NCBI GenBank assembly: GCA_902499925.1
Contig: GCA_902499925.1_4130.1
From: Escherichia coli
GTDB lineage: Bacteria > Pseudomonadota > Gammaproteobacteria > Enterobacterales > Enterobacteriaceae
Direction: 5' to 3' (one strand)
DNA: 64,000 bases
This document shows, piece after piece, positions 1,427-44,925 of the stretch. A program made the position numbers and the translations under genes. The notes beneath the pieces are model-generated. The model worked only from the letters and a program-made list of their open reading frames with translations, made no database searches and had not been told where the DNA came from. Numbering within the stretch: position 1 is the first letter of the stretch; each line of letters opens with the position of its first letter.

Positions 1427-1756
1427 TTATTCTTTCCCCTCGTCAGTACTGATGAATTTTTTATCTGAGAATGTGCCGTGTTCTTGACGCATAGCTTCTG
1501 CGTGTTGAACTGCGTTAATTGGATTAATGTTCTTTTTAATAAGAACTTCTTGCATTAATTCGAGAACAATAGAAAAACCATTGAGTACTCGCTCTGCCTC
1601 GTCAACACCTTTCAATTCAATAGCCACTGCACTAATCTGATCTAATGCGGTATTAATAAACTCTGAATCATCTAACACATCATTGACTTCAGTATTATTA
1701 CGTACAAGAACTTTCATATAATCTCCAGAAATAAGATGCCCCAAATGAGGCATCAA
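1427..1756 (-). CDS. hypothetical protein
   Basis: 109-aa ORF immediately upstream of 979..1425. Confidence 0.5.
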   Translation of the reverse strand: MMPHLGHLISGDYMKVLVRNNTEVNDVLDDSEFINTALDQISAVAIELKGVDEAERVLNGFSIVLELMQEVLIKKNINPINAVQHAEAMRQEHGTFSDKKFISTDEGKE

Positions 1757-1768: not shown

Positions 1769-2464
1769 TTAGACCCACTCTTCAACGCCACCGCGACGTT
1801 TGACGAGATACTTACCTTCTTCGTTGCGTGGTCCGAGGATGATACCATCAATGAAACCATGTTCACCGTATTCGAGTGCTTCTTCAGCGTTCAACCACAG
1901 GTCACGATCCGCATCTTTCAGTAGTTGTTCGTGTGATACACCAACTGCTTCAGCAATTTCTTTCGTCAATAGTGTGTTCAATGCATCAGAGTGTTTCAAA
2001 GAAATCTTCTGATCGGTAATCAGACCCTGAGTACCGGAACTTACTTGGTGGCACATGAAGTAAGAACGCTTACCACCTAGACGGAAACCTTTAGTACCAA
2101 CAACTGATTGAGTATAGCAACCCATTGATGCTGCATAACCCATTACTACTGTACGGATAGGAGATACACAAGACTTAGCAATGTCAGCGATACCCAAACC
2201 TGCGTGTACTGAACCACCAGGAGAACTAATGTAGAAGGTAATTGGTTCCGAACCCTGAGAATCCAACCACACCAATTGTTGCTTGATGATATGTGCCATT
2301 TGGTCATTGAAGTCAGTATCAAGGAAAATGATACGGTCTTGCATCATACGAGATGCTAGGTCATAAGTACGTTCTGCACCATTAACTTTTTCAACTACAT
2401 AAGGAATAGAAATGTTGCGAACTTCACCACCAGCATAACCACCAAAATTGAATTGTTCAACCAT
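1769..2464 (-). CDS. clpP: ClpP-like ATP-dependent protease proteolytic subunit (S14 peptidase)
   Basis: ISSPGGSV, catalytic Ser in GYAASMG, His in MCHQ, Asp in DADRD; overall colinear with bacterial ClpP. Confidence 0.85.
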   Translation of the reverse strand: MVEQFNFGGYAGGEVRNISIPYVVEKVNGAERTYDLASRMMQDRIIFLDTDFNDQMAHIIKQQLVWLDSQGSEPITFYISSPGGSVHAGLGIADIAKSCVSPIRTVVMGYAASMGCYTQSVVGTKGFRLGGKRSYFMCHQVSSGTQGLITDQKISLKHSDALNTLLTKEIAEAVGVSHEQLLKDADRDLWLNAEEALEYGEHGFIDGIILGPRNEEGKYLVKRRGGVEEWV

Positions 2465-2523
2465 TGTTATTTTCCTCTATTGTTTCATTGATGTGAGTAT
2501 TATATCACAGTGTTCGTATTTGT

Positions 2524-2907
2524 CTACAAGTTTCTTAAAAAATCTAGTAAACCGCAAATTGTATGTTTATTAAACATATCGTGGTCAATCTTTAACAACT
2601 TAACCATAGCATTATCATACACCGTAGAGTCGGTAATGTCAAACAAAGAATTTGTGTAATAACGTTCATTTTCTACATAAATGTATAAGTCATTTGATTT
2701 GTCAAGATCTTCATAGAAGTCAGCATCAAAGTACTCTGCAAATCCATCAATCCAAACCTCAACTGAATCATCATCTAAGCAGTAGTTTCTTGCTTCTTTT
2801 GAATATATTTCCAGCTTTCTGGCTGCACTGGAGTAATGTGTATACGCATTAATTACGTACTTTATTTCATCATTGTACTCAATTACATACACAACGATAT
2901 TTTCCAT
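2524..2907 (-). CDS. hypothetical protein
   Basis: 127-aa ORF. Confidence 0.5.
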   Translation of the reverse strand: MENIVVYVIEYNDEIKYVINAYTHYSSAARKLEIYSKEARNYCLDDDSVEVWIDGFAEYFDADFYEDLDKSNDLYIYVENERYYTNSLFDITDSTVYDNAMVKLLKIDHDMFNKHTICGLLDFLRNL

Positions 2908-5552: not shown

Positions 5553-6755
5553 TTATAGATAATACTTTCCAATGTAAAGTTTATTACTTAGTGATAGCTG
5601 GACGTGACAAGGTTTTTCTTGGTAGTAACGAGTTGATGATGTTTTATTTTCTGTTGGTGGGAAGAAAGGAGAACGGTATCCGTTCCATGTACCAAATGAT
5701 ACATGCTCGTTTAAATCCACATCCATTGTCATAATACCATTAGCATCAATTTCAACTGGATATGCACTGTATCGTTCAAATACATCAGTGTATTGAAGAA
5801 TATAATCACCATTACGACCATAATAACTTCTGGTTGTATTGTTCTTTACACCAAAGAAAACACGATATGCCTGTTCATCAACTTTACACATGAACGGAAC
5901 GTTCTCGTTGAATCGTCCATTACTCATTATATCATCAGGATTGATTTCTTCGTACTTTACTTTCAAATCTTGTGCTTTAAACGACTTATCACTTATCAGT
6001 ACTGGTATATTGCTTTCACATAATGGGTTACTGCGATTTCGTTGGATATTTTGCCAAAATGCATTAGCTTTAACAATTTCATCTTGAACTGTTGTTTTCA
6101 CATTCAGTGCAGCACTTGGTTCTAATGCATAAGTTTCAAGACGAGCATTAAGAGCATATGTCCCACGAGTAGTATTATATACTAAGTGATACTTGGAACT
6201 CTTATCAGAAAATGAAAACTCTTTAGTTTTCTTGATACAAATAGCATTTACTTTACCACAATAATAGTAATCTTCTTTATTGTGTCTAAAACCATCACCT
6301 ACTTTCAATTTAGAAACAACTTCTTTTTGTTGTTCTTTCTTATTCTCCTTCTCAACCAATTTAGCAAAGGTTTTAGTTTTACCGTTAATTAGTTCTAAAC
6401 TATTATTAAAGAACATAGGTTCAACAAATACACCCTTAACAATATCATTGTTGATGATAAGGTCGTTCATGTTTTTAGCACTCACCAAGAACTCGAAACC
6501 TTCAGGGTGACGTATGGTGAAGTATGTTTCACGAGCATGAACAGTGAGCTTATGTACCACAGAAAATCCAATTGTAGGCACATTATCAATCCATAGTGAA
6601 GGTAGATTGTTTTTCTTAGCCCAGTACTCGGCCTTTTCTTTTTTAGTCTCAAACGCTTTTGTGTGTGATTTTGTAGCATCTATAATGTAACCAGTAACTT
6701 GGTTATGATTTACATATGAACGAGCCACAAATAACTTCTCTGGAAAATCCATCAA
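5553..6755 (-). CDS. hypothetical protein
   Basis: 400-aa ORF, no recognisable motif. Confidence 0.6.
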   Translation of the reverse strand: MMDFPEKLFVARSYVNHNQVTGYIIDATKSHTKAFETKKEKAEYWAKKNNLPSLWIDNVPTIGFSVVHKLTVHARETYFTIRHPEGFEFLVSAKNMNDLIINNDIVKGVFVEPMFFNNSLELINGKTKTFAKLVEKENKKEQQKEVVSKLKVGDGFRHNKEDYYYCGKVNAICIKKTKEFSFSDKSSKYHLVYNTTRGTYALNARLETYALEPSAALNVKTTVQDEIVKANAFWQNIQRNRSNPLCESNIPVLISDKSFKAQDLKVKYEEINPDDIMSNGRFNENVPFMCKVDEQAYRVFFGVKNNTTRSYYGRNGDYILQYTDVFERYSAYPVEIDANGIMTMDVDLNEHVSFGTWNGYRSPFFPPTENKTSSTRYYQEKPCHVQLSLSNKLYIGKYYL

Positions 6756-7171
6756 ACAGTCCTCATTGTACTAATTGCTTTTAATGTGTTAAACAATGAA
6801 CCATATTTTACTTGCATTAGTTGATCCCCAGCAGGAAGATTCATACGCATAACAGACATGTCTTCAACCATTTCAGATGTACACAGTACTGCTACACATG
6901 TAGTTGCATCATTTAATCCGGCTTCATTGAATTTAGCGAATGGCACTTTTCCCTGCTTACAAAGGTCATCATAATAAGAATTTAACTTATCATGACCACC
7001 AGCATTTAGTACTACAATAGTTTCGTGGTCATAATACCATTCATCAATAATAGTACTGAAAGCAGTACCTTCATATTCTTTAATTAGTTTTACGCCAGCA
7101 TGAAATGCTTGAATTCCAGCTTGTACACCTTGGCAGTACATGTTTGTTAAGCAATATAATTTCATTTCCAT
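6752..7171 (-). CDS. hypothetical protein
   Basis: 139-aa ORF, 4-nt overlap with upstream gene. Confidence 0.55.
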   Translation of the reverse strand: MEMKLYCLTNMYCQGVQAGIQAFHAGVKLIKEYEGTAFSTIIDEWYYDHETIVVLNAGGHDKLNSYYDDLCKQGKVPFAKFNEAGLNDATTCVAVLCTSEMVEDMSVMRMNLPAGDQLMQVKYGSLFNTLKAISTMRTV

Positions 7172-7389
7172 ACCTCTTGTTTTTCTACAAACCCTTTACC
7201 ATCACAATGTGGACAAGCATAATAACTGCGATAGTCTTCAGATGGTACTTGTTGTGTTCCATTACATGTAGGGCATACTTTACGTGCACCAGAAATAATA
7301 CGTTCATGATGTTCAGCTTGTTTAGCTGAATCAAAAATACGACCATCTTCAGTTTGGTATTTTTCTACCATAACTTGAATTACTTTCAT
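7162..7389 (-). CDS. small zinc-ribbon protein
   Basis: 75 aa with CPTCNG...CPHCDG (two CxxC pairs). Confidence 0.5.
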   Translation of the reverse strand: MKVIQVMVEKYQTEDGRIFDSAKQAEHHERIISGARKVCPTCNGTQQVPSEDYRSYYACPHCDGKGFVEKQEVWK

Positions 7390-7705: not shown

Positions 7706-8432
7706 CTTTTTCTTTACGTAAGTATCTCATCCCGTCACTTTGGGGAGTTGCAAGAGTTAAATCACCAGTTAAAAACTGACTATCAATCCAGATACGATTA
7801 CCGTAGATGAGTGGGTCTGATACTGCGGTATGACCACTAAAGACGCAATGGATACCATCAAGTCTAGGGACGTAATATGTGTTATTTTTCTTGCAGTAGT
7901 CGAATGTATCACGGTCCCACAAGCACTTATCAATTATATCAGCACTAAGTGATTTTGTCCCACTAACGAAACGTTCCCATGTGGTATATTCCAAAGGAAC
8001 ACCAGCATGAACCAGTCCAATCTTCAATCCTCGGTGATTGATTTGGATAATCATAGGGAGATCCTTTAAGTACTGACGAAAGAACTGTATACCAGTCTCA
8101 CCAACTTCATCAAGGAACTTGTCGCCACCATTGGACATCCAGCAGTGATACCAGTCACGGTGAGTTTCAGAATCAACACACATGATCTCATGGTTCCCAG
8201 CAATCATAAAACGGTTTTCACCGAAAAGGAATTCAAATAGTAGTTTGGAATTCTGGTCACCACGGTCAATAACATCACCTACACAAAAAACATAGTCATT
8301 ATTGGTGATACCAAATTCTTTCTTGGTAGCATCCCACAGTTTTCCGTTGCCGTGTAAATCACCAACGATATATAAATCTTTATCATCCGGTACTGTAACT
8401 TCCAAAAAATGTTTCATTATTGTTCCAACCAT
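7674..8432 (-). CDS. Ser/Thr protein phosphatase-like metallophosphoesterase (PP-lambda/ApaH-like)
   Basis: GDLHGN, GDVIDRG, GNHE motifs; alternative start at MKHFLEV (8417). Confidence 0.75.
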   Translation of the reverse strand: MVGTIMKHFLEVTVPDDKDLYIVGDLHGNGKLWDATKKEFGITNNDYVFCVGDVIDRGDQNSKLLFEFLFGENRFMIAGNHEIMCVDSETHRDWYHCWMSNGGDKFLDEVGETGIQFFRQYLKDLPMIIQINHRGLKIGLVHAGVPLEYTTWERFVSGTKSLSADIIDKCLWDRDTFDYCKKNNTYYVPRLDGIHCVFSGHTAVSDPLIYGNRIWIDSQFLTGDLTLATPQSDGMRYLRKEKDEYSFNRFKR

Positions 8433-18663: not shown

Positions 18664-18856
18664 GAATACGCTCACATGCCAGACAATAAATGCACTCAAT
18701 GTCAGGTCGCCATGATTTATCGAAATCTTTGTGCTGTTCTTCAGTGTATTCCGCATCATCATTGATAGGAAAGAAATCCCCAGCACCAGAGGCCCAGTCT
18801 GAATCTAAACGGAAACGAGCTAATTGAGTACTGTTGCAATATGGACATTTATTCAA
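18656..18856 (-). CDS. small zinc-ribbon protein
   Basis: 66 aa with CPYC ... CIYCLAC. Confidence 0.45.
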   Translation of the reverse strand: MNKCPYCNSTQLARFRLDSDWASGAGDFFPINDDAEYTEEQHKDFDKSWRPDIECIYCLACERIHD

Positions 18857-19133
18857 AATTTATTCCTTCTAACTGATATACGTTTAATGAAAATGACCCA
18901 CTATTATTATCGCATCTGAAACACAGTGTTAAAGAACCATTAAAACTAACAACATCAGTACATATACATTTTTCACCATTGGATATGATAGATTTTCCTA
19001 TATATAAATCTCTTACTATAGTACGGTAATGTTGCCATAAAAAATAATACACACTTTCATAGTACTCATCTTTTACATATGACAAGTATAAGAATTTATA
19101 AAATACTTGTATTTCCTTTAAGTTGTTTTTCAT
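18849..19133 (-). CDS. paralog family C member
   Basis: N-terminus MKNNLKEIQVFYKFLYLSY shared with four adjacent ORFs. Confidence 0.55.
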   Translation of the reverse strand: MKNNLKEIQVFYKFLYLSYVKDEYYESVYYFLWQHYRTIVRDLYIGKSIISNGEKCICTDVVSFNGSLTLCFRCDNNSGSFSLNVYQLEGINFE

Positions 19134-19407
19134 TCTCCAACTCCAGTAAATTTACACCAATCCAATCAACATCACTATCAGTACTTAATTCCAATCGTAG
19201 CTTACCGCTATGACTAACAATATCGCGGAATTTGTATATTTTATTATCACGAACTATACACAAATCATGGTAATATTCATGTAATTCATCCAAAAACTTT
19301 ATCCATACCGAACGATAGATTTCACCGTAGAGATATTCTCCAGCATCAACCGTAGCGTATTGGATATACAAAAATTTGTATGTGAATTGTATATCATTAA
19401 TATTCAT
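19096..19407 (-). CDS. paralog family C member
   Basis: MNINDIQFTYKFLYIQY. Confidence 0.55.
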   Translation of the reverse strand: MNINDIQFTYKFLYIQYATVDAGEYLYGEIYRSVWIKFLDELHEYYHDLCIVRDNKIYKFRDIVSHSGKLRLELSTDSDVDWIGVNLLELENEKQLKGNTSIL

Positions 19408-19417
19408 ATGTCAACTC

Positions 19418-19729
19418 TTATAGGTCCGTTAACTTCATAACTTTAATCTCCATAAATTCCCTATCAGTTTTTTCAAGAAATTCTACATGGATAATACCTT
19501 GATAAGATTTTACACCTGAATATTCAAATATGTCATCTCCATCAGTGTAAGTACTGTAATTCTTTTTTATATATTCAGCAATAGAATCTAAGTAATCATA
19601 GTAATTATTAATAAATGGTGATTCTTTTGATTCGACATGTTCACCAATCTTCCCACTAAAAAGATACATGTCATACAAACCATATATATTTTTATACGTG
19701 AATTGAACATCATTCAAATTTAATTTCAA
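19418..19729 (-). CDS. paralog family C member
   Basis: MKLNLNDVQFTYKNIYGLY. Confidence 0.55.
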   Translation of the reverse strand: MKLNLNDVQFTYKNIYGLYDMYLFSGKIGEHVESKESPFINNYYDYLDSIAEYIKKNYSTYTDGDDIFEYSGVKSYQGIIHVEFLEKTDREFMEIKVMKLTDL

Positions 19730-19986
19730 GGGAATATCTCCAGAGGAACACTCGTAAATCCAAAATCAGTGAAGAACTGTACCTCGACTTTACCATCGAG
19801 CTTAATGATTATATCTGAAAATTCTGCATGATCGTTGTTAATAATTACAGTACTGAATTTTTCTTTAATCCTCTCACGCACAATATTAATCATTTCAATA
19901 CATGTATCTTCTAAAAACACACTATTATTTTTATTTGCTAGGTCACGAATGCACTTGAATGTTAATTGGAAATCTTTATAATTCAT
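19726..19986 (-). CDS. paralog family C member
   Basis: MNYKDFQLTFKCIRDL; 4-nt overlaps on both sides. Confidence 0.55.
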   Translation of the reverse strand: MNYKDFQLTFKCIRDLANKNNSVFLEDTCIEMINIVRERIKEKFSTVIINNDHAEFSDIIIKLDGKVEVQFFTDFGFTSVPLEIFP

Positions 19987-20252
19987 ATATTCACCAAATC
20001 AACAGAGAATAAGTCGTTATCAAATTTATATGAAAGTACTAATCTACCACCAAAACTATCGACTCTAAGTATCTTTCGTTTTTTCCCATTAATGAAAATT
20101 TCAGTATTAATAAAATACTCACGTAATTCTTCTAGGTAATTTGACCATAATTTATGAGTAAACGCATTTTTATTAATTGTGTTAGTACTTCTGTGATTAT
20201 GGTGTAATTTAAATAATTCCATATAAGTGAATTGTATATGTTTGTAATTCAT
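19983..20252 (-). CDS. paralog family C member
   Basis: MNYKHIQFTYMELFKL. Confidence 0.55.
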   Translation of the reverse strand: MNYKHIQFTYMELFKLHHNHRSTNTINKNAFTHKLWSNYLEELREYFINTEIFINGKKRKILRVDSFGGRLVLSYKFDNDLFSVDLVNI

Positions 20253-21469: not shown

Positions 21470-22003
21470 TTATTTCCTCATGTATTTTATTACATCTTCA
21501 AATAGTTTAGTTTTCAGTGCATCATCATTACCAGGTAGAAAAGTACTGAAGCTATTAAAATCTTCATTCTTGGCAAACTCACGCATCTGTGTGGAACTGT
21601 AGCGACTTACATTTCGGTCAATTCCAGCTTGAACTGCCTTGATTGAACAAAAATTATATAACTTCCCATTGTACGTGTCAAGTGTTTTTTGGAATGGTTC
21701 AAGTCTGTCTGAACCACATATGAAAAGAACATCTAAGTACTTTCCATCCAGTTCTCTCATTATATCAAACAGATTATCTTCTGTATAGATATTTTCTTGT
21801 ACAGATGGGTAAAATCCTTCTGTATAGTACATTTTCAGTTCAGGAGGTAATGGGTTTTTGACGGCATCAGTACTGGTACTAAGGAATATTTTCAAATCAG
21901 CATTGTACTGTTCTTGTAGTGCTTGAGCTTTTTCAAACACTAAACCATGACCTCGATGTACAGGGTTAATTCTTCCGAATGTCACTACGCATGTTTCTTT
22001 CAT
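21470..22003 (-). CDS. cytidylyltransferase-like nucleotidyltransferase (PPAT/NMNAT-like)
   Basis: N-terminal FGRINPVHRGH (GxFxPxHxGH) and C-terminal YSSTQMR (ISSTxxR-like) signatures. Confidence 0.65.
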   Translation of the reverse strand: MKETCVVTFGRINPVHRGHGLVFEKAQALQEQYNADLKIFLSTSTDAVKNPLPPELKMYYTEGFYPSVQENIYTEDNLFDIMRELDGKYLDVLFICGSDRLEPFQKTLDTYNGKLYNFCSIKAVQAGIDRNVSRYSSTQMREFAKNEDFNSFSTFLPGNDDALKTKLFEDVIKYMRK

Positions 22004-34553: not shown

Positions 34554-34582
34554 ATTATAACACACCTGAATGCTCATGTAAA
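34554..34582 (-). promoter_or_regulatory. sigma70-like promoter candidate
   Basis: Minus-sense TTTACA-17nt-TATAAT with TGn extension, ~25 nt upstream of ATG of 33963..34526. Confidence 0.5.
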
Positions 34583-35682: not shown

Positions 35683-36224
35683 AATTGTACCTTCAATATT
35701 TTATCAGCAATTGATATAACCTTCTCACTGAATACATTACCAATCTCAATCCTTATATACATAGCAGGTGGAATCTTTCCTTGAAGTGCATAATATGTTT
35801 GTATACCTAAGTACTCATTATTTGATAATGAAAATTTGATTCTCTCCATATCTATGTCTGATTTTGGTAAATCTAGTAGTTCATGGTGGTAGTCAACATT
35901 TTCAGTGTATATTTGATTTAAGTAATTTGAATGATCACTACTAATGTAGATGCTATCATCACGAATAATTACTTTATAATCAGAAGGTTCAAACTTATCT
36001 TTAGGCGAAAAGAAGACATCATCTATCTTCTCTTCTCGTATACCGAATAACAATTTGCCATCGTACTTTACATCAAGCATACCACCTAGAATAGTAATTA
36101 CACAATGTTCATCAATGTCATGACGTAAAGAACGAGTCTTGTATTTTGGGTTAATGAAAATTTTCATTAATTTTATACAAATGTCGGCAATGCATTTTAC
36201 ATTATCATTTTCTATGTACATCAA
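35679..36224 (-). CDS. hypothetical protein (possible degenerate family A)
   Basis: 181-aa ORF in array. Confidence 0.45.
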   Translation of the reverse strand: MMYIENDNVKCIADICIKLMKIFINPKYKTRSLRHDIDEHCVITILGGMLDVKYDGKLLFGIREEKIDDVFFSPKDKFEPSDYKVIIRDDSIYISSDHSNYLNQIYTENVDYHHELLDLPKSDIDMERIKFSLSNNEYLGIQTYYALQGKIPPAMYIRIEIGNVFSEKVISIADKILKVQL

Positions 36225-36699
36225 AAACCCTCTTTAATTCTTTTACATTTTTAATGAATACTTTCATTGCAGAGATCTCAAAAGATAATGATTTAAAATT
36301 GCAGTACTTTTTAAAGTACGACATAATGAATAGCATCTTGAGTTCTTTTTCTGTGTAAATTAAACTATTTTGAAAGTAACTTTCTTCTGATAAATCATCA
36401 AGAAACGGATATAAAACTCCATTTGTTCTCAAGAACATGATACCTTCACTCCATGATCTAAATGAAAGGTAATCAGTCTTACCACATTCATATAAGGAGT
36501 TTATCATTCCATCAATCATTAAGGAGAACTCAATACTGTATCCTAATCTTTGACACTTGTATCTCTTATCTTCTTTCTTTGTAATTACGAAGTGATGACC
36601 CAGTGAGTCTTTGTTATCGAAAATGAAATCAACTGTCTCTAAACACTCCTTAGCGAACTTCATAGTTTCTCTGTACTTTCGGTTCATTAGTCTCTCCAA
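36205..36699 (-). CDS. paralog family A member
   Basis: EESYFQNSLIY. Confidence 0.55.
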   Translation of the reverse strand: MERLMNRKYRETMKFAKECLETVDFIFDNKDSLGHHFVITKKEDKRYKCQRLGYSIEFSLMIDGMINSLYECGKTDYLSFRSWSEGIMFLRTNGVLYPFLDDLSEESYFQNSLIYTEKELKMLFIMSYFKKYCNFKSLSFEISAMKVFIKNVKELKRVFDVHRK

Positions 36700-37100
36700 A
36701 CTTTACCAGGGAAGTGTTTCTCGTAGAACTCATCATCACTTAACATATAATCAGGTGTTTCTACTTCTATGGGTTTGTAGAATGTTTCTGGAATGTGTGT
36801 GATTTTATTTGGTTGTACTTTATGTTCGCGTAAAACCTTCTGTATAGCTCCTAGACGTTGTAAATCAATACAGGTGGGCAGAACTAAGCTGTACTGAAAT
36901 AGCTCATCAGGGGTCATTATAGATACATCCTTGGCTTGTTTGATTTTATTGTTGGCATCAATGAATATATCAAATCCAAGTACTGCATTATAGCTTACAT
37001 ATGTTGTTTTGTTTTTGTCAATAGCTGCACTTAAACTATATCCATATATTCCATGTTGGTCAACAATGCATCGTTGCATAATTTTAATCATTTCGAACAT
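36687..37100 (-). CDS. paralog family A member
   Basis: PDELFQYSLVL. Confidence 0.55.
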   Translation of the reverse strand: MFEMIKIMQRCIVDQHGIYGYSLSAAIDKNKTTYVSYNAVLGFDIFIDANNKIKQAKDVSIMTPDELFQYSLVLPTCIDLQRLGAIQKVLREHKVQPNKITHIPETFYKPIEVETPDYMLSDDEFYEKHFPGKVWRD

Positions 37101-37446
37101 AATTTACCTCGTATGTGTTATAATTCCACGTTTTAACACTATCCATTTGTATATCCTGAACTTCATGGAAATATTTAAGTACCTTCTGGTATTCCATTAG
37201 TTCGTATACATCTTCAGTATTGACAGTGCTCTCCTGAAACAATTCCTCTTCTGATAAAGTACTATAATCAGGGATTTTTATTTCAGAATATATCTCATTC
37301 ATATATGAATCATTTTGGTAAATCTGTAGATAAAACTGATTATATTCAGGGATATAGGTTACGAAATGGTTCTTGATGAATTCATATCTTGAAGCAAAGC
37401 AATCATTGCCATCCGTCATGTACTGAATTGTTGTTGTATTATGCAT
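37084..37446 (-). CDS. paralog family A member
   Basis: STLSEEELFQESTV. Confidence 0.55.
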   Translation of the reverse strand: MHNTTTIQYMTDGNDCFASRYEFIKNHFVTYIPEYNQFYLQIYQNDSYMNEIYSEIKIPDYSTLSEEELFQESTVNTEDVYELMEYQKVLKYFHEVQDIQMDSVKTWNYNTYEVNYVRND

Positions 37447-37921
37447 TCAAATAATCCACGCATTTATGGTATACATCTAAATCTAAAAAGAATCGTTGTT
37501 TGTATTTGTAATGATGAAGTAGTGCACCATAAAGTAATATAGCATTAAGTACTTTTGCATCATGAATACAAGACCCTTGGAAGTACATTTCTTCAGTCAT
37601 GAAAACTAACTCATTGTAAGGGATAAGCACTGAATCTCTAAATGTATCAATGTTAATCTTCAAATCGGACCCTTGGCAATATGAAATATATTCACCTCTG
37701 TAATGAAAGTCATTATCGTCAAAGTACTCAGCATATACTTGATTGTCCCTATTATTTTTAAAGGCAAGTCTTCCTTTGGTTGAACTGAATTGGTCATATT
37801 GGAACATTCCACCAAAAGGAATTCCACCGAAAGGTTGGGGACTTCTGAACTCCTTTGCAATGCGATGAATGTTAGATGCAAATTCTAAAACACCATCGTA
37901 ATCATATTCTGTTGTAATCAT
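37439..37921 (-). CDS. paralog family A member
   Basis: EEMYFQGSCI. Confidence 0.55.
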   Translation of the reverse strand: MITTEYDYDGVLEFASNIHRIAKEFRSPQPFGGIPFGGMFQYDQFSSTKGRLAFKNNRDNQVYAEYFDDNDFHYRGEYISYCQGSDLKINIDTFRDSVLIPYNELVFMTEEMYFQGSCIHDAKVLNAILLYGALLHHYKYKQRFFLDLDVYHKCVDYLNA

Positions 37922-38397
37922 AGACCATTTTTCTCCATGTACTCAATGATTTCATCTACGAAGTTTAAATCCATATAGAATCTATCATTTGCGTCATTGA
38001 GTTCATCTTTAAGTACTGTAAAAATTGTAGAACTAAACACGATTCTCTCATTGTACAAAGTACTGTACTGGAAGAATTCTTCTTCTGATCTAACATTAAA
38101 TGTGTCATATTCATCATCAACATCAGATCTAGGATGATAGTACTTAAAACTATCAGATGTATGGAAACAATATGAGATAAAATCCCCTGATGGTGCATCG
38201 TCAAGTACACGAATACCACAGAAATTCTCATCTGTAGTATGCAACAAATTGCTATTCATTGACAAATAATTTTTGTACGCATAAAGTGTGCATCGTGGGA
38301 GAATTATATTCTCTTTAACTGTTACAAGGAACTTATGAAGTTTAATGATATTTTGTGCGATTTTTTGTGCATTGCTAAATGATAGGTCTTTGGACAT
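37918..38397 (-). CDS. paralog family A member
   Basis: EEEFFQYSTLY. Confidence 0.55.
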   Translation of the reverse strand: MSKDLSFSNAQKIAQNIIKLHKFLVTVKENIILPRCTLYAYKNYLSMNSNLLHTTDENFCGIRVLDDAPSGDFISYCFHTSDSFKYYHPRSDVDDEYDTFNVRSEEEFFQYSTLYNERIVFSSTIFTVLKDELNDANDRFYMDLNFVDEIIEYMEKNGL

Positions 38398-38456
38398 TGT
38401 GATATAACCCTTTACAATTAATATAAAGAGATTATATCACAAAGATTTGGAGGGTG

Positions 38457-38990
38457 TCAAGAGTTCTCACGAAGTTCTACCATTTCTTTCCATACTAAAT
38501 GGTAATCTTCTAAGTCCAGATAGAAGTCTTCATTTAAGTGCTCATATAAGTACTTGTACATGAATAGTACACCTAAATTGTATTCAGTAGTAAGCAATGA
38601 TTGTTGGAAGTAGTTTTCTTCATTTAGTTCTATATCCATGAACTCAAATCTACCTAGACCTTTTAATGTACGTATCTCAACATGTGAAGTATCTGTTTTA
38701 CTGAAGCACATGAATCCACCTCTAAATTCGGGATCATATTCACATTCATACTGTCCACTGTTATTATAGAAATCTCTATTACCATCCTTATCTTTTGGCT
38801 TAACAACTGATACGTGAAGGTCGTCATCTTTGTACATTGTACGTTCTGGCGTTTTCACACATTTTAACTTATTTTCTTTAATGTACTTGATAATATCAAT
38901 TATATCTTGTGCAGTACTGATTGCTGCCTCGAACGTATCCAACTTAAGATGATTGTATAGAGTTCCCTCGTTCTTTATTTTATCTAACAT
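38457..38990 (-). CDS. paralog family A member
   Basis: EENYFQQSLL; track ORF 38457..39047 trimmed to internal Met. Confidence 0.5.
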   Translation of the reverse strand: MLDKIKNEGTLYNHLKLDTFEAAISTAQDIIDIIKYIKENKLKCVKTPERTMYKDDDLHVSVVKPKDKDGNRDFYNNSGQYECEYDPEFRGGFMCFSKTDTSHVEIRTLKGLGRFEFMDIELNEENYFQQSLLTTEYNLGVLFMYKYLYEHLNEDFYLDLEDYHLVWKEMVELRENS

Positions 38991-38997
38991 ACTAACC

Positions 38998-39336
38998 TCA
39001 TAGTTCATACATCTTTGATTTGAATTGCATTGGTCCACCAACTTCACATGGATAATTTTCCATAATACGATTCAAAAGTATCTGGTACTGTTGTAGTACT
39101 TCAATTTCCAAATGTATACTACTATCCAGTACTAATGACTCCTGAAACAATTCACCTCTATCTAAACCTGAAAAATCATTTATAGTTAGCATTGGCTTAT
39201 CATTTGTACGCAATGTAAATGATTCCTCATTTCGGATTAATGTACAGAATTCATTATGTTTTCTGTTGTAATCCATTTTAACCAATAATAACTTGGTGTG
39301 AGTTGCGTACATTATTTTTACTAATTCAGTCTTCAT
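38998..39336 (-). CDS. paralog family A member
   Basis: RGELFQESLVL. Confidence 0.55.
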   Translation of the reverse strand: MKTELVKIMYATHTKLLLVKMDYNRKHNEFCTLIRNEESFTLRTNDKPMLTINDFSGLDRGELFQESLVLDSSIHLEIEVLQQYQILLNRIMENYPCEVGGPMQFKSKMYEL

Positions 39337-39685
39337 AACGGAATAAAATTCTCCTGTACTGCTCCGGCTTAGTACTCAATCTCTTCACTGGATAATTGTC
39401 GAAGATCCTTTTCATTTCTTTCTGGATTAAACAAAGAAAATCAAAATCACAATAGTATTTTTTATCCCATACTAAACTTTCTTGAAACAACTCATCTTCT
39501 TGCATTAGCGTAGTATCAATTGTATCTTCACGTGTATTTGAGTACGCTTCATGACATTGAAAACCATCCTCGGATAATCCTAATGTATATGCCGCCATTT
39601 CAAACATATCATCATTTGTCTTTAACGAAAGTAAACAACAAACGTATTTTTTCGTTGTGTAGTAAGTAATGCTAATGGTATTCAT
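39326..39685 (-). CDS. paralog family A member
   Basis: EDELFQESLVWDKKY. Confidence 0.55.
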   Translation of the reverse strand: MNTISITYYTTKKYVCCLLSLKTNDDMFEMAAYTLGLSEDGFQCHEAYSNTREDTIDTTLMQEDELFQESLVWDKKYYCDFDFLCLIQKEMKRIFDNYPVKRLSTKPEQYRRILFRYED

Positions 39686-39690
39686 TGGAT

Positions 39691-40293
39691 TTAAACCTCA
39701 GTATAAAGCTTACAATAGCTTTCATCGAAATCAAAAATACTTCTCAAGAACTGACAAAGGTCAGTAAAAATATTTACATTTGCTATATACACATTATCAA
39801 ATTCTGTTCTTTCGAAGAATGTATGCATAGAATTTGTAATATATCTCATTGCAGATTCACGCTGCATTGTTATATCATTTGTGAACATCGCATCTTCATC
39901 AGTACTGACTAATTCAATATCAAATGATTGCATATATGGGATACTCTTCCCTAGTGCAAAGCTATCACCGTATGATGCTTCAACTGCATCTTTAGAATAC
40001 ACCAATTGATATAAGTCCGAAATAGGGTTATAAAAAGTACGACATATTGATGAACATAATTTATTATCTATCCAAAAGAAAACCCTATTTGTATTACCGT
40101 CAAATGCTATACGCAATCCATCACCATCTAACGATATATCACCATCGAGATTAAAAGAGAACTGAACTAATGCTTTTTCTAAGTCCATTCTTTTGTGATA
40201 AATGATTTCTTGCATATAGATAATATCATTTACTAATTTCTTAAAATACAAATGAACCTCAGTACTACAACATTTATTTGCATTTAATAACAT
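39691..40293 (-). CDS. hypothetical protein (possible degenerate family A)
   Basis: 200-aa ORF in array. Confidence 0.45.
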   Translation of the reverse strand: MLLNANKCCSTEVHLYFKKLVNDIIYMQEIIYHKRMDLEKALVQFSFNLDGDISLDGDGLRIAFDGNTNRVFFWIDNKLCSSICRTFYNPISDLYQLVYSKDAVEASYGDSFALGKSIPYMQSFDIELVSTDEDAMFTNDITMQRESAMRYITNSMHTFFERTEFDNVYIANVNIFTDLCQFLRSIFDFDESYCKLYTEV

Positions 40294-40880
40294 AGTAGAT
40301 CCTTATACATTGCATGTATTCTTACAATGTCTCTGTAATAACTCATATCTTCACGATTATCATTAAAAACAGTAACACTGAATACAGCAGTACTAATTGA
40401 ACTATCAACAATGTACTCTTTTAATTTATTATAAAGATATATGCACTTAGTAGATGTATCATCCCACATAAGACTATTTTGAAAGATGTTTTCTTCTGTG
40501 TTAGGATATAAGTACTGATCAATCTTGTACCCCAATGAACTATCACAGTTTTTATATACAGAAATAGATGGGACATTCATATTGCACATAATACTAATAA
40601 CATTATCATTGTATGTAGAAATTAAACTGGTACTGGATGCTACACTTTCATCATAATTCAGTACTGAAATTCTTGCATTATCTGTGCAGTACAGATGTTT
40701 CATTCCACCTCTCATAGCCATAGTAAGAAATTTATCAGTGAACCATATTCCTTTTGTTTTCAGTATAGTTTCATGCATAAGATAAGTTTCAATGAAGATT
40801 TTTACACGCTCAAATGCCAAGTCAAGTTCATTGTACATAACGGATATCCTTCTGTAAAGAATCAATATATTCTTTAACAA
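40284..40880 (-). CDS. paralog family A member
   Basis: EENIFQNSLMW. Confidence 0.55.
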   Translation of the reverse strand: MLKNILILYRRISVMYNELDLAFERVKIFIETYLMHETILKTKGIWFTDKFLTMAMRGGMKHLYCTDNARISVLNYDESVASSTSLISTYNDNVISIMCNMNVPSISVYKNCDSSLGYKIDQYLYPNTEENIFQNSLMWDDTSTKCIYLYNKLKEYIVDSSISTAVFSVTVFNDNREDMSYYRDIVRIHAMYKDLLCY

Positions 40881-41019
40881 CTTGTTCCTGATACTGTGTA
40901 CCCAAATACATCAGTACTTTTAATTCTTTGAATTCAGTACCATATGAGTCGATTTGCATCATTCTTTTAGAGTATATACCGAATAGTTTATCAATATCAT
41001 CTTGGTTTATTATTTTCAT
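40828..41019 (-). CDS. paralog family B member (dispersed copy)
   Basis: LGTQYQEQVVKEYIDSL. Confidence 0.5.
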   Translation of the reverse strand: MKIINQDDIDKLFGIYSKRMMQIDSYGTEFKELKVLMYLGTQYQEQVVKEYIDSLQKDIRYVQ

Positions 41020-41224
41020 AAACCCTCTTCTGGATTAGTTCCTGTAAGTGCTGAATATAACCCTTCATTGCAACATCCTGTTTGTTAGAGCCAACGAAGA
41101 ACAATAGCTTAAAGTCATGGTAATCCATTTTTGGTTTAGTAGTGAACCATATGTCCCACACTGCACTCACAGTTCTCATGTATTCAATTCGATTAAATGT
41201 TTTTGAATACTTCATCGAAATCAA
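40997..41224 (-). CDS. paralog family B-like (dispersed copy)
   Basis: VGSNKQDVAMKGYIQHL. Confidence 0.45.
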   Translation of the reverse strand: MISMKYSKTFNRIEYMRTVSAVWDIWFTTKPKMDYHDFKLLFFVGSNKQDVAMKGYIQHLQELIQKRVYENNKPR

Positions 41225-41726
41225 CCTTTAATAAATTGATATTTAAATTACTGTTAAATGCCATCTGTAATTCCATATAGAACTGAATAATAGCATAGTC
41301 AGGATCAGTACAAGATAGTTGAAAGCACTGTTCTTCAAATGAATTGTAATTGTACTTAGGAATATTAATAGTACGATATAACTCTGGATAACCCCATATC
41401 ATAGTGTACACGTCAATTTCAGTACACTTTTTCTTAAAAGTCATCTGTCGAATAGTTTCAGATCTGGATTCAAGGTATACAACATTCTTATGAACGGCTG
41501 AACCAATTGAAAGCAATGATGTATCAATGACGTGTTTCTCACGTATATCACACTTCTGGAATGCACCATTCCCTTGTAACAGTTTATGGAAATCGTACTT
41601 CTCACTAATAACTGTACTAGGATCAATTAATCCAGTACTGCATTTTTTCAGTACTGGTACGATAGTGCGAATCTTTTTTGATAAATCTTGTAATGCATCA
41701 TAATCATTAATGTTAATTTTTCTCAA
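41193..41726 (-). CDS. paralog family A member
   Basis: EEQCFQLSCT. Confidence 0.55.
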   Translation of the reverse strand: MRKININDYDALQDLSKKIRTIVPVLKKCSTGLIDPSTVISEKYDFHKLLQGNGAFQKCDIREKHVIDTSLLSIGSAVHKNVVYLESRSETIRQMTFKKKCTEIDVYTMIWGYPELYRTINIPKYNYNSFEEQCFQLSCTDPDYAIIQFYMELQMAFNSNLNINLLKVDFDEVFKNI

Positions 41727-42169
41727 ACGGATGCCTCTTCTATAGTAACGAAATCAACTAACCTATCAAGTTTTTCAGTGTCTAGATAAAATATATCCAG
41801 TACTGACTTCTGATATAGTACACTAAATGTACATAGATTGTCAAGTGTTCCTTCATTATAAACAGTACTTCCCTGGAAGTACCCTTCTTCTGTACTCAGA
41901 GATAAAATATCAGAAATTTTAAAAGATTCTTCATTCTCATGACGCTCTATCGTAACTTCATCATATTTTCTGTTCAATGAAATATAATCGTATGCTAATT
42001 CAATAGTACTACAGTTGTTGTTGCTAGTGTCAAATAAAGAATCAATTGTAATCTTCGTACCATTAGAAACTTCTCTGCGTTTATCATCTACGTATTCAGG
42101 ATTTTCTTTGAAGAACTTAACAACTTTTAGAATATCATTTGCTTTCTTGATTGCACTTTCGTAACTCAT
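41723..42169 (-). CDS. paralog family A member
   Basis: EEGYFQGSTVY. Confidence 0.55.
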   Translation of the reverse strand: MSYESAIKKANDILKVVKFFKENPEYVDDKRREVSNGTKITIDSLFDTSNNNCSTIELAYDYISLNRKYDEVTIERHENEESFKISDILSLSTEEGYFQGSTVYNEGTLDNLCTFSVLYQKSVLDIFYLDTEKLDRLVDFVTIEEASV

Positions 42170-42608
42170 TTTTTCTGGACTCCATATATATCACCTGATT
42201 TAGTTCATATACATAATCTAAATCAATGAATATAGAATTATTAAAGTTCTCTTTCAGAAATGCATTAAAAACTACTAAAGCTCTTAATGCACTATTTGGG
42301 TATATAGTACTGTACTGGAAGTAAGCATCTTCTGAATTTAAGAATAGTACTTCTTCTTCGGTGAATTCAAAATATTTTCCACTTTCATCGATTGAATAGA
42401 AAGTTCCAGAATCCCATACGAAGTACTTGAATTCCAAATCATAATCATGGGACTCGTACTTATATTCATTACCTAATCCTAGAATATCTGTACCAACACT
42501 TATAGTACTAATATATGCCCCTTTATGGTCTAAGTACTTTACATTATTTTGAAAGAACTTTACTATATTAACTAATTCTTCAGCGTGCTTAAGATCACTT
42601 TCGTACAT
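42135..42608 (-). CDS. paralog family A member
   Basis: EDAYFQYSTIY. Confidence 0.55.
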   Translation of the reverse strand: MYESDLKHAEELVNIVKFFQNNVKYLDHKGAYISTISVGTDILGLGNEYKYESHDYDLEFKYFVWDSGTFYSIDESGKYFEFTEEEVLFLNSEDAYFQYSTIYPNSALRALVVFNAFLKENFNNSIFIDLDYVYELNQVIYMESRKNELRKCNQESK

Positions 42609-42922
42609 TATATTTCAACCTCTATATATTCTTGGGTAATTAAGTAATCCCAGTAGTACTTCACTTGTTTTTGTATCTCAATTAAAGCATAAAAATTAAT
42701 TCTCTTATCCCATACAAGTGATTCCTGAAAAAGAAATGTTTCATGATCATCTCTGTAATCACATTCAAGGAAGTCAGGAATATAATCACAATCGTGAAGA
42801 TATTCAATCATTAAAGATTCATTACATCTCCTAACTGCAAGATGTTGGAAATTATCATGATCGAAGAAATACATTAGACTAATTGTTCCAGGAATGTACT
42901 GAATACTGTATAAGAATTTCAT
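42608..42922 (-). CDS. paralog family A member
   Basis: ETFLFQESLVWDKR. Confidence 0.55.
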   Translation of the reverse strand: MKFLYSIQYIPGTISLMYFFDHDNFQHLAVRRCNESLMIEYLHDCDYIPDFLECDYRDDHETFLFQESLVWDKRINFYALIEIQKQVKYYWDYLITQEYIEVEI

Positions 42923-43362
42923 CGTTTACCCTTATATACTTCACGTACATATTCATAATCCAAATAAAATCTTGTACTATCAATACTTTTAAAGTACCAC
43001 ATAATAACTAAAGTATCTAGTACTTCATCATCATACAAAGTACTATTCTGAAAGTAATACTCTTCACTATCCCACGGACCTTTCAGTACTTCAAAGTTCA
43101 ATTTTAAAGGTCTGCTGCGATTATAAAAACGGATTTCACCACCATAAGCATAACTGATAAATTCTGCATCTGGATTGTATTGTGAAAAATCTGCGGGACT
43201 TTTGGAATTCAACCCAAGAATAACTGTAGTTGTAGCAAAATCACTATCCTTGTAGTAGTTACCATTCTCGGCTTTGTATACTTCTTCGAACTTCCCAGCC
43301 TTAATGTCTTCAATATATGCCTGTAGTTCTTTTGCTTTATCAAGAGCACTTCGTAATGACAT
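42919..43362 (-). CDS. paralog family A member (EEYYFQ subfamily)
   Basis: WDSEEYYFQNSTLY ... VIMWYFKS. Confidence 0.6.
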   Translation of the reverse strand: MSLRSALDKAKELQAYIEDIKAGKFEEVYKAENGNYYKDSDFATTTVILGLNSKSPADFSQYNPDAEFISYAYGGEIRFYNRSRPLKLNFEVLKGPWDSEEYYFQNSTLYDDEVLDTLVIMWYFKSIDSTRFYLDYEYVREVYKGKR

Positions 43363-43828: not shown

Positions 43829-43830
43829 TA

Positions 43831-44738: not shown

Positions 44739-44739
44739 A

Positions 44740-44925
44740 TCAACTCCTGTGTTGTGTCTTGATATAATCTCGGTACACCATGTGAATATTAGCTATATAC
44801 AATTCACTAATATCATATGTACCGAAGTACATGTCATTCCTAATGCTGTTGTTATGTCTAATATCAATTACGAATCGTCGAAGTATTGTATTCATGAATG
44901 ATTCCATTTGTTCTTTTTTATTCAT
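44740..44925 (-). CDS. small hypothetical protein
   Basis: 61-aa ORF filling the gap between array members. Confidence 0.35.
   Translation of the reverse strand: MNKKEQMESFMNTILRRFVIDIRHNNSIRNDMYFGTYDISELYIANIHMVYRDYIKTQHRS

What the first reader, a model, noticed from the sequence alone, without database searches (positions are those of the whole stretch)
1769..2464. Phage-encoded ClpP homolog with intact catalytic triad among T4-like early/DNA-metabolism genes
The protein retains the Ser (GYAASMG), His (MCHQ) and Asp (DADRD) positions of bacterial ClpP. It sits near the ligase and phosphoesterase genes rather than in a head-morphogenesis context. T4 itself uses the unrelated gp21 prohead protease, so a ClpP-type protease here may act on host or phage regulatory proteins, conceivably with the paralog families as adaptors or substrates (speculative).
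Basis: partly seen in the sequence, partly recalled or inferred. Interest (0 to 1): 0.55.

Follow-up and report, generated by a model that had tools for sequence, protein, structure and literature searches.

The report
Jumbo-phage ClpP, partner of phage ClpA
The gene is a real, intact ClpP protease subunit of a 360-kb E. coli jumbo phage; it is not the capsid-maturation protease and most likely works with a ClpA unfoldase encoded elsewhere in the same phage genome. The gene is already annotated in public phage records but has never been studied experimentally.

Summary
Window 1769-2464 (minus strand) encodes a 231-aa ClpP with Ser113/His139/Asp188, an axial loop and a handle. It matches Pfam CLP_protease (143 bits) and solved bacterial ClpPs (E ~1e-36; AF2 model TM 0.91-0.96).

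The window is an Asteriusvirus (Rak2-like) jumbo coliphage. This gene is 100% identical to Escherichia phage Turkey3, and about 70 phage records hold a close relative, annotated as ClpP or auto-labelled "head maturation protease".

That label is very probably wrong. The genus has a T4 gp21-type S77 prohead protease between its portal and capsid genes. ClpP is absent from the phAPEC6 virion proteome and is not mentioned in the RaK2 report.

One is a 762-aa ClpA orthologue with intact motors and an IGM docking loop. It co-occurs with ClpP across the clade (70 vs 71 records). The other is a weak ClpS-like protein. ClpP and ClpA each carry a near-consensus extended -10 sigma-70 promoter and their own terminator.

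Best reading: an early-expressed, phage-encoded ClpAP protease with unknown substrates.

Clade-specific features: a remodelled docking pocket (F82 to S/N, L114 to G), a conserved ~19-residue C-terminal extension, and non-aromatic ClpA docking tripeptides.

The gene and the idea are already published; interest is modest.

The parts
1769..2464 (-). ClpP coding sequence (231 aa plus stop at 1769-1771)
   Evidence: ORF list. Pfam CLP_protease 142.9 bits. PDB ClpPs at E~1e-36. AF2 pLDDT 92. Foldseek TM 0.91-0.96 to solved ClpPs. [quoted passage not shown]
2126..2128 (-). Codon of the catalytic Ser113 (GYAASMG)
   Evidence: Aligns with E. coli S97. Invariant in 65 of 65 phage-clade and 44 of 44 cellular sequences.
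2048..2050 (-). Codon of the catalytic His139 (MCHQ)
   Evidence: Aligns with E. coli H122. Invariant.
1901..1903 (-). Codon of the catalytic Asp188 (DADRD)
   Evidence: Aligns with E. coli D171. Invariant; the neighbouring R187 (Ec R170) is also invariant in the phage clade.
2411..2464 (-). N-terminal residues 1-18, poorly conserved; a possible propeptide
   Evidence: Mean conservation 0.51 against 0.77 for the core. pLDDT below 50 for residues 2-11. It occupies the place of the 14-residue E. coli propeptide. Cleavage is inferred, not shown.
2357..2410 (-). Axial N-terminal gating loop (residues 19-36)
   Evidence: P21, V23, E25, E31, R32, Y34, D35 and L36 align with E. coli P4, V6, E8, E14, R15, F17, D18 and I19. 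Each is kept in at least 60 of 65 phage-clade sequences.
1772..1846 (-). Clade-specific C-terminal extension (residues 207-231, ends WV)
   Evidence: Every one of the 65 phage-clade sequences has 24-26 residues after D206, against a median of 6 in cellular ClpPs. R224 is 100% conserved; R223, G217, G226, N214, V221 and W230 are at least 94%. It is predicted as ordered beta strands with pLDDT above 92.
2499..2526 (-). Sigma-70-type promoter with extended -10 (TAGACA, 16-nt spacer, TG-n-TATAAT), 34 nt upstream of the ATG
   Evidence: Consensus scan gives 11 of 12 matches plus the TG. The -10 block GTGATATAAT is identical in PBECO4 and phAPEC6 while the flanks diverge. An equivalent promoter is present in Klebsiella phage Muenster. 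This is a prediction only.
2473..2479 (-). Ribosome-binding site (AGAGGAA), about 9 nt before the ATG
   Evidence: Read directly from the sequence. Conserved in PBECO4 and phAPEC6.
1725..1754 (-). Hairpin plus T-tract, terminator-like, in the gap between the ClpP stop and the next gene (start 1717)
   Evidence: Scan result. The stem is conserved in PBECO4 and phAPEC6. A terminator is annotated at the same place in phage Muenster.

Best explanation
The gene encodes a catalytically competent, cytoplasmic ClpP peptidase subunit of an Asteriusvirus (Rak2-like) jumbo coliphage. It is transcribed as its own unit by host sigma-70 RNA polymerase, probably early in infection. It most likely assembles into the usual barrel and serves as the proteolytic chamber for the phage's own ClpA unfoldase. 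That 762-aa protein is encoded about 85 kb away, outside the window. A divergent ClpS-like adaptor may steer the complex. The result would be a phage-encoded ATP-dependent ClpAP protease that degrades selected host or phage proteins. It is not the head-maturation protease. Shown here: the fold, the triad, the gene context, the existence and co-occurrence of the ClpA gene, and the promoter and terminator motifs. Inferred: barrel assembly, pairing with phage ClpA, early timing and substrates.
For: The ClpP identity is full length: the triad, the oxyanion hole, the axial loop and the handle helix (H149-174) are all present. Selection is strongly purifying, with 77 synonymous against 9 non-synonymous codon differences versus PBECO4. 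Scores favour cellular-type ClpP (NCBIfam ClpP models 126-156 bits) over the ClpP-related head-maturation model (51 bits, cutoff 120). A separate Peptidase_S77 (T4 gp21-like) protease lies between the portal, scaffold and major capsid genes. That protease is found in phAPEC6 and RaK2 virions, while ClpP (phAPEC6 gp353c) is not in the phAPEC6 list and is not mentioned in the RaK2 report. The same genome encodes a ClpA orthologue. It is 43.5% identical to E. coli ClpA over its full length, with N-D1-D2 order and no M-domain. Its Walker A/B motifs and its KYR and GYVG pore loops are intact, and IGM stands at the IGL docking position. ClpP at 60% identity or more occurs in 70 phage records and ClpA at 60% or more in 71, from the same genera. 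PA5oct-like phages also carry both. Both genes have a T[TA]GACA, 16-nt spacer, TGTGATATAAT promoter 34-40 nt before the ATG and a terminator after the stop. This holds in Turkey3 and PBECO4, with equivalents in Muenster. A ClpS-like protein is present (BLASTP E=4e-5 to E. coli ClpS; the only weak PDB hits are ClpS chains).
Against: No experiment exists on this protein or any close relative. ClpP and ClpA are 85 kb apart and not in one operon. Three of the twelve pocket residues that hold the ClpA IGL loop in E. coli ClpAP are changed non-conservatively: Y60 to T, F82 to S/N and L114 to G. R192 is also not kept. The ClpA docking tripeptide is variable in the clade, including IGA, IGG, MSM and MNM, so docking is not guaranteed in every lineage. 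Seven matched genome pairs show no clean covariation between loop and pocket. One virion proteome (phage CBB) reported ClpP with a single peptide at 4.5% coverage. The ClpS-like hit is below the Pfam threshold (17.1 against 23 bits). The promoters are predictions. Overall promoter-like hits in the 8.5-kb region are not enriched (37 against 38.2 expected), although the stricter extended -10 pattern is (10 against 1.2, all on the coding strand).
Confidence: 0.65

Rival explanations
1. The phage ClpP uses host unfoldases (E. coli ClpX and/or ClpA) rather than the phage ClpA. It would add or replace peptidase capacity while host clpP expression is shut off. The phage ClpA would then act separately, for example as a chaperone or disaggregase.
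For: The axial-loop motif that contacts ATPase pore-2 loops is conserved, and 9 of 12 pocket residues are conservative. Iyer et al. note that other jumbo phages carry only ClpS and so must rely on host ClpAP. The ClpA tripeptide is degenerate in some lineages.
Against: ClpP and ClpA co-occur almost perfectly across the clade and share a promoter type. The pocket positions that cradle the aromatic or Leu residue of IGF/IGL (F82, L114) are the ones that changed, and a conserved C-terminal extension abuts the pocket strand. The phage ClpA keeps a hydrophobic-Gly-hydrophobic loop and lacks the ClpB M-domain.
Confidence: 0.17
2. It is a head-maturation or virion-associated protease, as the RefSeq/pharokka label says.
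For: The best PHROG hit is phrog_94, 'head maturation protease' (E=9.5e-44). One ClpP peptide was found in CBB virions.
Against: A dedicated S77 gp21-type protease sits in the capsid module. The gene lies among DNA and nucleotide-metabolism genes behind a sigma-70 promoter. It is not in the phAPEC6 virion list and is not mentioned for RaK2. The NCBIfam head-maturation ClpP-related model scores 51 bits against a cutoff of 120, while cellular ClpP models score about 150. It retains the axial loop and has a matching ClpA partner.
Confidence: 0.04
3. The phage ClpP co-assembles with host ClpP, or with the nearby divergent 202-aa ClpP-fold protein, into mixed rings of the ClpP1P2 type. This would re-programme or poison host Clp proteolysis.
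For: A second ClpP-fold gene lies 3 kb away behind the same promoter type. Mixed ClpP1P2 complexes with asymmetric ATPase docking and a pocket-guarding C-terminal extension are known in mycobacteria (PMC6889138).
Against: The 202-aa protein lacks the catalytic Asp, the axial loop and a normal C-terminus, and matches the ClpP profile only weakly (hhalign probability 51%). Identity to E. coli ClpP is only 34.5%. The fully conserved triad argues against a pure decoy.
Confidence: 0.08
4. It is an ATPase-independent peptidase, with gating set by its own C-terminal extension, that trims peptides or unfolded proteins.
For: The conserved, ordered C-terminal extension sits next to the docking pocket, and the pocket is partly polar.
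Against: The axial gating loop is conserved as in ATPase-dependent ClpPs, and a co-occurring ClpA carries a docking loop.
Confidence: 0.05

Closest known systems
Bacterial ClpP of the ClpAP/ClpXP proteases (MEROPS S14; E. coli ClpP, PDB 1TYF/3MT6; S. aureus, T. thermophilus ClpP)
   Same: The fold over about 193 residues (TM 0.91-0.96), the Ser-His-Asp triad, the oxyanion hole, the axial N-terminal loop motif, the handle helix and Gly-rich strand, and R170-type ring contacts. It also has a probable N-terminal propeptide and a ClpA partner with a docking loop.
   Different: It is only 34.5% identical to the host's ClpP, and at most about 45-51% identical to any cellular-type (193-200 aa) ClpP found. 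It falls below all NCBIfam ClpP equivalog cutoffs (153 against 308.6). Three docking-pocket residues are replaced (Y60T, F82S/N, L114G) and V44 becomes an invariant Lys. It has a conserved ~19-residue C-terminal extension ending in WV. It is virus-encoded.
ClpP-related phage head-maturation proteases (NCBIfam NF045542, NF045540; PHROGs 133, 2976, 1684)
   Same: The same clan and the catalytic Ser-His core. This accounts for the automatic 'head maturation protease' label.
   Different: The scores are weak (46-51 bits). There is no capsid-module context and no scaffold or capsid fusion. This protein keeps the axial loop and the full handle.
T4 gp21 prohead core protease (Peptidase_S77, PF03420)
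   Same: Nothing structural. This is the enzyme that actually fills the head-maturation role in this phage group.
   Different: It is an unrelated fold and family. The phage's own S77 homologue (Turkey3 203303-203923; phAPEC6 gp227c, 74.6 bits) lies between the portal and the capsid gene and is detected in virions.
Mycobacterial ClpP1, whose C-terminal extension guards the hydrophobic pocket (ClpP1P2; PMC6889138)
   Same: A ClpP with an altered pocket composition and a C-terminal extension next to the pocket. In M. smegmatis these features decide which ring an ATPase can dock on.
   Different: The extension there is about 12 residues and unrelated in sequence. No second canonical ClpP is encoded here.
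Clp components reported in other jumbo phages (Agrobacterium phage Atu_ph07 ClpX/ClpA/ClpB/ClpP/ClpS; ClpP or ClpS in group 1 and 2.2 jumbo phages)
   Same: The same phenomenon, described from annotation. ClpA was noted as conserved in most Rak2-like phages, and ClpP was proposed to be deployed against the host.
   Different: Those papers give no residue-level analysis, no pairing argument, no promoter data and no experiment.

Membership tests
ClpP (MEROPS S14, Pfam PF00574) | CLP_protease domain above the Pfam gathering score over its full length | tested here: met
   142.9 bits against 20.2; profile positions 2-179 of 182.
ClpP (MEROPS S14, Pfam PF00574) | Ser-His-Asp triad and oxyanion hole at the homologous positions | tested here: met
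   S113/H139/D188 correspond to Ec S97/H122/D171, and G84/M114 to G68/M98. All are invariant in 65 phage-clade sequences.
ClpP (MEROPS S14, Pfam PF00574) | ClpP fold with a handle (helix E plus a Gly-rich strand) and an N-terminal axial loop | tested here: met
   The AF2 model has pLDDT 92 and contains H149-174. TM is 0.91-0.96 to solved ClpPs. The axial motif P21/V23/E25/E31/R32/Y34/D35/L36 is conserved.
ClpP (MEROPS S14, Pfam PF00574) | Hydrophobic pocket for the IGF/IGL loop (A52, L48, F49, F82, L23, Y60, Y62, I90, M92, F112, L114, L189) | tested here: inconclusive
   Eight of the eleven positions examined are conservative (L23M, L48V, F49W, Y62Y, I90V, M92M, F112L, L189I). Y60T, F82S and L114G are not; A52 was not examined. 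R192 is also not kept. The altered states are themselves conserved in the clade (G131 in 61 of 65, T76 in 56 of 65).
ClpP (MEROPS S14, Pfam PF00574) | Orthology to bacterial ClpP by NCBIfam equivalog cutoffs | tested here: not met
   TIGR00493 scores 153.3 against 308.6 and NF001368 scores 156.4 against 249. It is a divergent family member, not an equivalog.
ClpP (MEROPS S14, Pfam PF00574) | Tetradecameric barrel; ATPase-dependent protein degradation | not testable with these tools
   Only a monomer model could be made, and there is no biochemistry.
ClpAP two-component protease | A cognate Hsp100 unfoldase with a ClpP-docking loop encoded by the same genome | tested here: met
   Turkey3 168535-170823, 762 aa, with Pfam AAA + AAA_lid_9 + AAA_2 + ClpB_D2-small. 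It is 43.5% identical to E. coli ClpA and has IGM at the IGL position. It lies outside the window. Co-occurrence is 70 against 71 records.
ClpAP two-component protease | Physical ClpA-ClpP docking | not testable with these tools
   The loop tripeptides are non-aromatic and variable in 107 phage ClpAs, against [IMV]GF in 11 cellular ones. Seven genome pairs show no clean covariation.
ClpP-related phage head-maturation protease (NF045542) | Score above the family cutoff | tested here: not met
   51.1 bits against a cutoff of 120.
ClpP-related phage head-maturation protease (NF045542) | Position in the head module next to portal, scaffold and capsid genes | tested here: not met
   The neighbours are DNA ligase, phosphatases, a MazG-like NTP pyrophosphohydrolase and dCMP deaminase. 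The capsid module is about 120 kb away and has its own S77 protease.
ClpP-related phage head-maturation protease (NF045542) | Presence in proheads or virions | tested here: inconclusive
   From published proteomes: absent from the 62 phAPEC6 virion proteins, not mentioned among the 54 RaK2 proteins (main text only), and one peptide at 4.5% coverage in CBB.

The most novel reading that the evidence does not exclude
The phage ClpP-ClpA pair may have a docking interface that has diverged on both sides. On ClpP, pocket residue F82 is S/N and L114 is G, and a conserved ~19-residue C-terminal extension lies beside the pocket. On ClpA, the loop is hydrophobic-Gly followed by M, V, A or L instead of the cellular [IMV]GF. 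Such an interface could insulate the pair from host ClpX, ClpA and ClpP. That would give the phage a private, early-expressed protease, possibly co-regulated with a ClpP-fold paralogue and a MoxR-like AAA+ protein through a shared promoter type, for removing host defence or regulatory proteins without interference from the host Clp network.
Probability: 0.25. Interest if true: 0.65.

Novelty: already known. Interest (0 to 1): 0.3.

Why it matters
Virus-encoded ATP-dependent proteases are rare and none from a phage has been characterised biochemically. If the ClpAP pair works as inferred, Rak2-like jumbo phages bring their own regulated proteolysis machine into the cell. Such a machine is a plausible tool for counter-defence, host takeover or proteostasis during a long infection cycle. 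There are two practical points. First, the 'head maturation protease' label carried by this gene in several RefSeq and pharokka-annotated genomes is probably a mis-transfer and should read ClpP. Second, the altered docking pocket and C-terminal extension make this clade a natural test case for how ClpP-ATPase specificity is set, and possibly a source of orthogonal degradation modules. None of this changes the fact that the gene and the general idea are already in the databases and the literature.

Tried and rejected
- **Literature.** Full-text searches for 'phage-encoded ClpP', 'phage ClpP', 'viral ClpP', Asteriusvirus + Clp, and Rak2-like + ClpA found no experimental work.
- **ClpP1P2-style partner.** I tested whether the neighbouring 202-aa ClpP-fold protein could be such a partner. 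It keeps SPGG, Ser and His but lacks the Asp and the axial loop. Its profile match is weak (hhalign probability 51%). I set it aside as unlikely.
- **Loop-pocket covariation.** RaK2 combines an IGV loop with Y at position 82, so there is no clean pattern. The co-evolution claim stays a hypothesis.
- **Paralogue families.** They exist in the window (19, 7, 6 and 5 members), but nothing connects them with ClpP.
- **General promoter scan.** The 8.5-kb region shows no enrichment. Only the strict extended -10 pattern does.
- **Technical dead ends.** A MAFFT run timed out.
- **Not examined.** Turkey3 350,001-361,208; the supplementary virion tables of RaK2 and PA5oct; and the coordinates of the AF2 model, so the position of the C-terminal extension relative to the pocket is unknown.

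Full report
**What is there.** The minus strand of window 1769-2464 carries an ATG-initiated ORF of 231 aa (25.4 kDa).
- It matches Pfam CLP_protease over essentially the whole profile (142.9 bits against a gathering score of 20.2).
- It matches 109 distinct PDB ClpP sequences, the best at E~3e-36.
- In an alignment with E. coli ClpP (34.5% identity), Ser113/His139/Asp188 fall on S97/H122/D171 and G84/M114 on the oxyanion residues.
- An AlphaFold2 model built on 81 sequences has pLDDT 92 and pTM 0.85. It superposes on solved bacterial ClpPs with target-normalised TM 0.91-0.96 and rmsd 1-2 A.

**Where the window comes from.**
- The first 8 kb are 98.6% identical to Escherichia phage Turkey3 (361 kb), and the ClpP gene is 100% identical to it.
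- The relatives are PBECO4, 121Q, phAPEC6 and slurp01, that is the genus Asteriusvirus of the Rak2-like jumbo myoviruses.
- The window is the reverse complement of roughly Turkey3 21-85 kb.
- About 70 phage records hold the gene at 60% protein identity or more.
[quoted passage not shown] PHROG-based pipelines and several RefSeq records call it 'head maturation protease'.
- Against PBECO4 there are 77 synonymous and 9 non-synonymous codon differences, so the gene is under strong purifying selection.

**Not the prohead protease.**
- The neighbours are DNA ligase, two metallophosphatases, a MazG-like pyrophosphohydrolase, dCMP deaminase, PNK and RNA ligase 1.
- About 120 kb away the genus has a canonical T4-type head module: portal, a 207-aa protease, scaffold and major capsid protein.
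- That protease matches Peptidase_S77 (T4 gp21) at 74.6 bits against a cutoff of 27.
- In the published phAPEC6 virion proteome the S77 protease, scaffold, capsid protein and portal are detected. ClpP (gp353c) is not among the 62 proteins (PMC7247149).
- The RaK2 report names the S77 protease as the phage protease and does not mention ClpP (PMC3622015).
- The only contrary datum is one ClpP peptide (4.5% coverage) in phage CBB virions (PMC5259590).
- NCBIfam cellular ClpP models score 126-156 bits, whereas the ClpP-related head-maturation model scores 51 against a cutoff of 120.
- The phrog_94 label therefore looks like a transfer from a family that lumps true ClpPs with capsid proteases.

**Partners.** I read the annotation of Turkey3 from 1 to 350 kb.
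- At 168,535-170,823 lies a 762-aa protein with the Pfam domains AAA, AAA_lid_9, AAA_2 and ClpB_D2-small.
- It is 43.5% identical to E. coli ClpA along its whole length and has the same N-D1-D2 order, with no ClpB-type M-domain.
- Its Walker A/B motifs and its KYR and GYVG pore loops are intact. It has IGM where E. coli ClpA has the ClpP-docking IGL.
- ClpA homologues at 60% identity or more occur in 71 phage records from the same genera as ClpP. The more distant PA5oct-like Pseudomonas phages also have both.
- A 181-aa protein at 252,965-253,510 is a weak ClpS relative. Pfam gives 17.1 bits, below the cutoff. BLASTP against E. coli ClpS gives E=4e-5. The only weak PDB hits are ClpS chains.
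- No ClpX, HslU or Lon was annotated.
- An earlier genome paper noted that ClpA is conserved in most Rak2-like phages (PMC6102473).
- Iyer et al. already proposed that jumbo-phage ClpP is aimed at the host (PMC7824862).

**Expression signals.**
- Thirty-four nucleotides upstream of the ClpP ATG lies TAGACA, a 16-nt spacer, then TG-n-TATAAT.
- The GTGATATAAT block is identical in PBECO4 and phAPEC6 although the flanks diverge.
- A conserved hairpin with a T-tract follows the stop codon. A terminator is annotated there in phage Muenster.
- The ClpA gene has a perfect 12/12 promoter of the same build (TTGACA, 16-nt spacer, TGTGATATAAT) and a strong bidirectional terminator. It sits as a lone opposite-strand gene among tail and baseplate genes.
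- PBECO4 and Klebsiella phage Muenster show equivalent promoters before both genes.
- In the window, the strict extended -10 pattern occurs 10 times, all on the coding strand, against 1.2 expected.

I infer transcription by unmodified host RNA polymerase, hence probably early. This is a prediction, not a measurement.

**How this ClpP differs from cellular ClpPs.**
- The pocket residues that hold the ClpA IGL loop in E. coli ClpAP are listed in the cryo-EM study (10.1101/820209).
- In the window protein, eight of the eleven I examined are conservative; A52 was not examined.
- Three are not: Y60 is T, F82 is S (N in most of the clade) and L114 is G (61 of 65 sequences). In the 44 nearest cellular ClpPs, position 82 is Y or F in 40 and position 114 is L in 42. 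Position 60 varies among cellular ClpPs too (Q in 28, S in 10), so the T there is not clade-specific.
- V44 is an invariant Lys in the clade, and R192 is not kept.
- These altered states are themselves conserved. That points to a constrained, clade-specific surface rather than decay.
- All 65 clade members carry 24-26 residues after D206, against a median of 6 in cellular ClpPs.
- This extension is as conserved as the core (R224 100%; R223, W230, G217, G226, N214 and V221 at least 94%; the terminus is usually WV). It is predicted as ordered strands.
- In ClpP the C-terminal strand forms one wall of the pocket. In M. smegmatis ClpP1 a C-terminal extension blocks ATPase docking (PMC6889138).
- On the ATPase side, 107 phage-clade ClpAs carry non-aromatic, variable tripeptides: MGM, IGM, IGV, LGM, IGA, LGL, MSM, IGG and MNM. 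The 11 nearest cellular ClpAs all have [IMV]GF.
- Seven matched genomes gave no clean loop-pocket covariation.

An 'orthogonal interface' therefore remains a hypothesis, to which I give about 25%.

**Mechanism I commit to (confidence about 0.65).** This is an early-expressed phage ClpP that forms the proteolytic chamber of a phage-encoded ClpAP protease, possibly steered by the ClpS-like protein, and it degrades proteins in the infected cytoplasm. Substrates are unknown.

Rival explanations:
- use of host ClpX or ClpA instead (0.17);
- mixed rings with host ClpP or with the 202-aa ClpP-fold paralogue (0.08);
- ATPase-independent peptidase activity (0.05);
- head maturation (0.04).

**Novelty and score.** The gene, its ClpP annotation, the presence of ClpA in Rak2-like phages and the host-targeting idea are all already public. 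I therefore rate the finding 'already known'. New here are four points:
- the explicit exclusion of a head role;
- the co-occurrence and shared promoter architecture of ClpP and ClpA;
- the remodelled pocket;
- the conserved C-terminal extension.

These are sequence-level inferences that make a clear experiment possible but do not overturn expectations. Interest is 0.3.

Noticed in passing
Outside the window, 1.2-2.7 kb beyond position 1: Turkey3 86200-86808 and 87158-87754 (L006:36200-36808, L006:37158-37754); also Turkey3 307951-308448 (L012:7951-8448): A divergent 202-aa ClpP-fold protein keeps SPGG, Ser and His but has no Asp and no axial loop (Pfam CLP_protease 21 bits). One protein matches the HslV family (phrog_1040) and starts MTC, so a Thr follows the initiator Met as in HslV. 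A second, annotated 'ATP-dependent protease', starts MTT but has no family match. No HslU was seen in the annotation.
   Followed up: partly
Turkey3 82510, 86037, 139077/139169 and 168469 (L006, L007, L008); in the window the first is 2499-2526 (-): The promoter build T[TA]GACA, 16-nt spacer, TGTG(A/T)TATAAT precedes ClpP, the ClpP-fold paralogue, a MoxR-like AAA+ ATPase (two tandem copies) and ClpA. Four of the nine exact TGTGATATAAT sites in 350 kb fall here. This may mark a co-regulated proteostasis set.
   Followed up: partly
Window, minus strand: 7933-7959, 21653-21679, 21759-21785, 34554-34580, 49128-49154, 50474-50500, 53514-53540, 54961-54987, 62996-63022, 63765-63791: Ten extended -10 sigma-70-like promoter matches, all on the coding strand, against 1.2 expected by shuffling. 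This is consistent with the whole window being an early region driven by host RNA polymerase.
   Followed up: no
Window 56332-61621 (-); also 38998-46966, 36205-44738, 31315-55880, 18849-20252: There are tandem paralogue families of small ORFs: 19 members of about 70-90 aa in one 5-kb array, plus families of 7, 6, 5 and 3. Their function is unknown and no link to ClpP was found.
   Followed up: partly
Turkey3 168535-170855 (L008:18469-20855): The ClpA gene is a single plus-strand island with its own perfect sigma-70 promoter and a 12-bp-stem bidirectional terminator. It is wedged between minus-strand tail and baseplate genes, including a 9.97-kb gene.
   Followed up: partly
Window 6752-7171 (-), 1427-1717 (-), 7162-7389 (-): A PTH2-type peptidyl-tRNA hydrolase-like protein (Pfam 23.2 bits, at the cutoff). 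A small MazG/HisE-like NTP pyrophosphohydrolase lies directly downstream of ClpP. A 75-aa protein carries two CxxC pairs.
   Followed up: no
RefSeq records NC_027364.1, NC_025447.1, NC_019526.1, NC_041878.1, NC_042116.1: The ClpP orthologue is labelled 'head maturation protease' although each genome group has a separate gp21-type prohead protease. This is probably a systematic annotation error from phrog_94.
   Followed up: yes
Turkey3 337098-350094 (L012:37098-50000): An array of about 10 paralogous RCC1/HERC1-like beta-propeller genes, called 'DNA condensation proteins' in phAPEC6. Several of them are detected in phAPEC6 virions.
   Followed up: no
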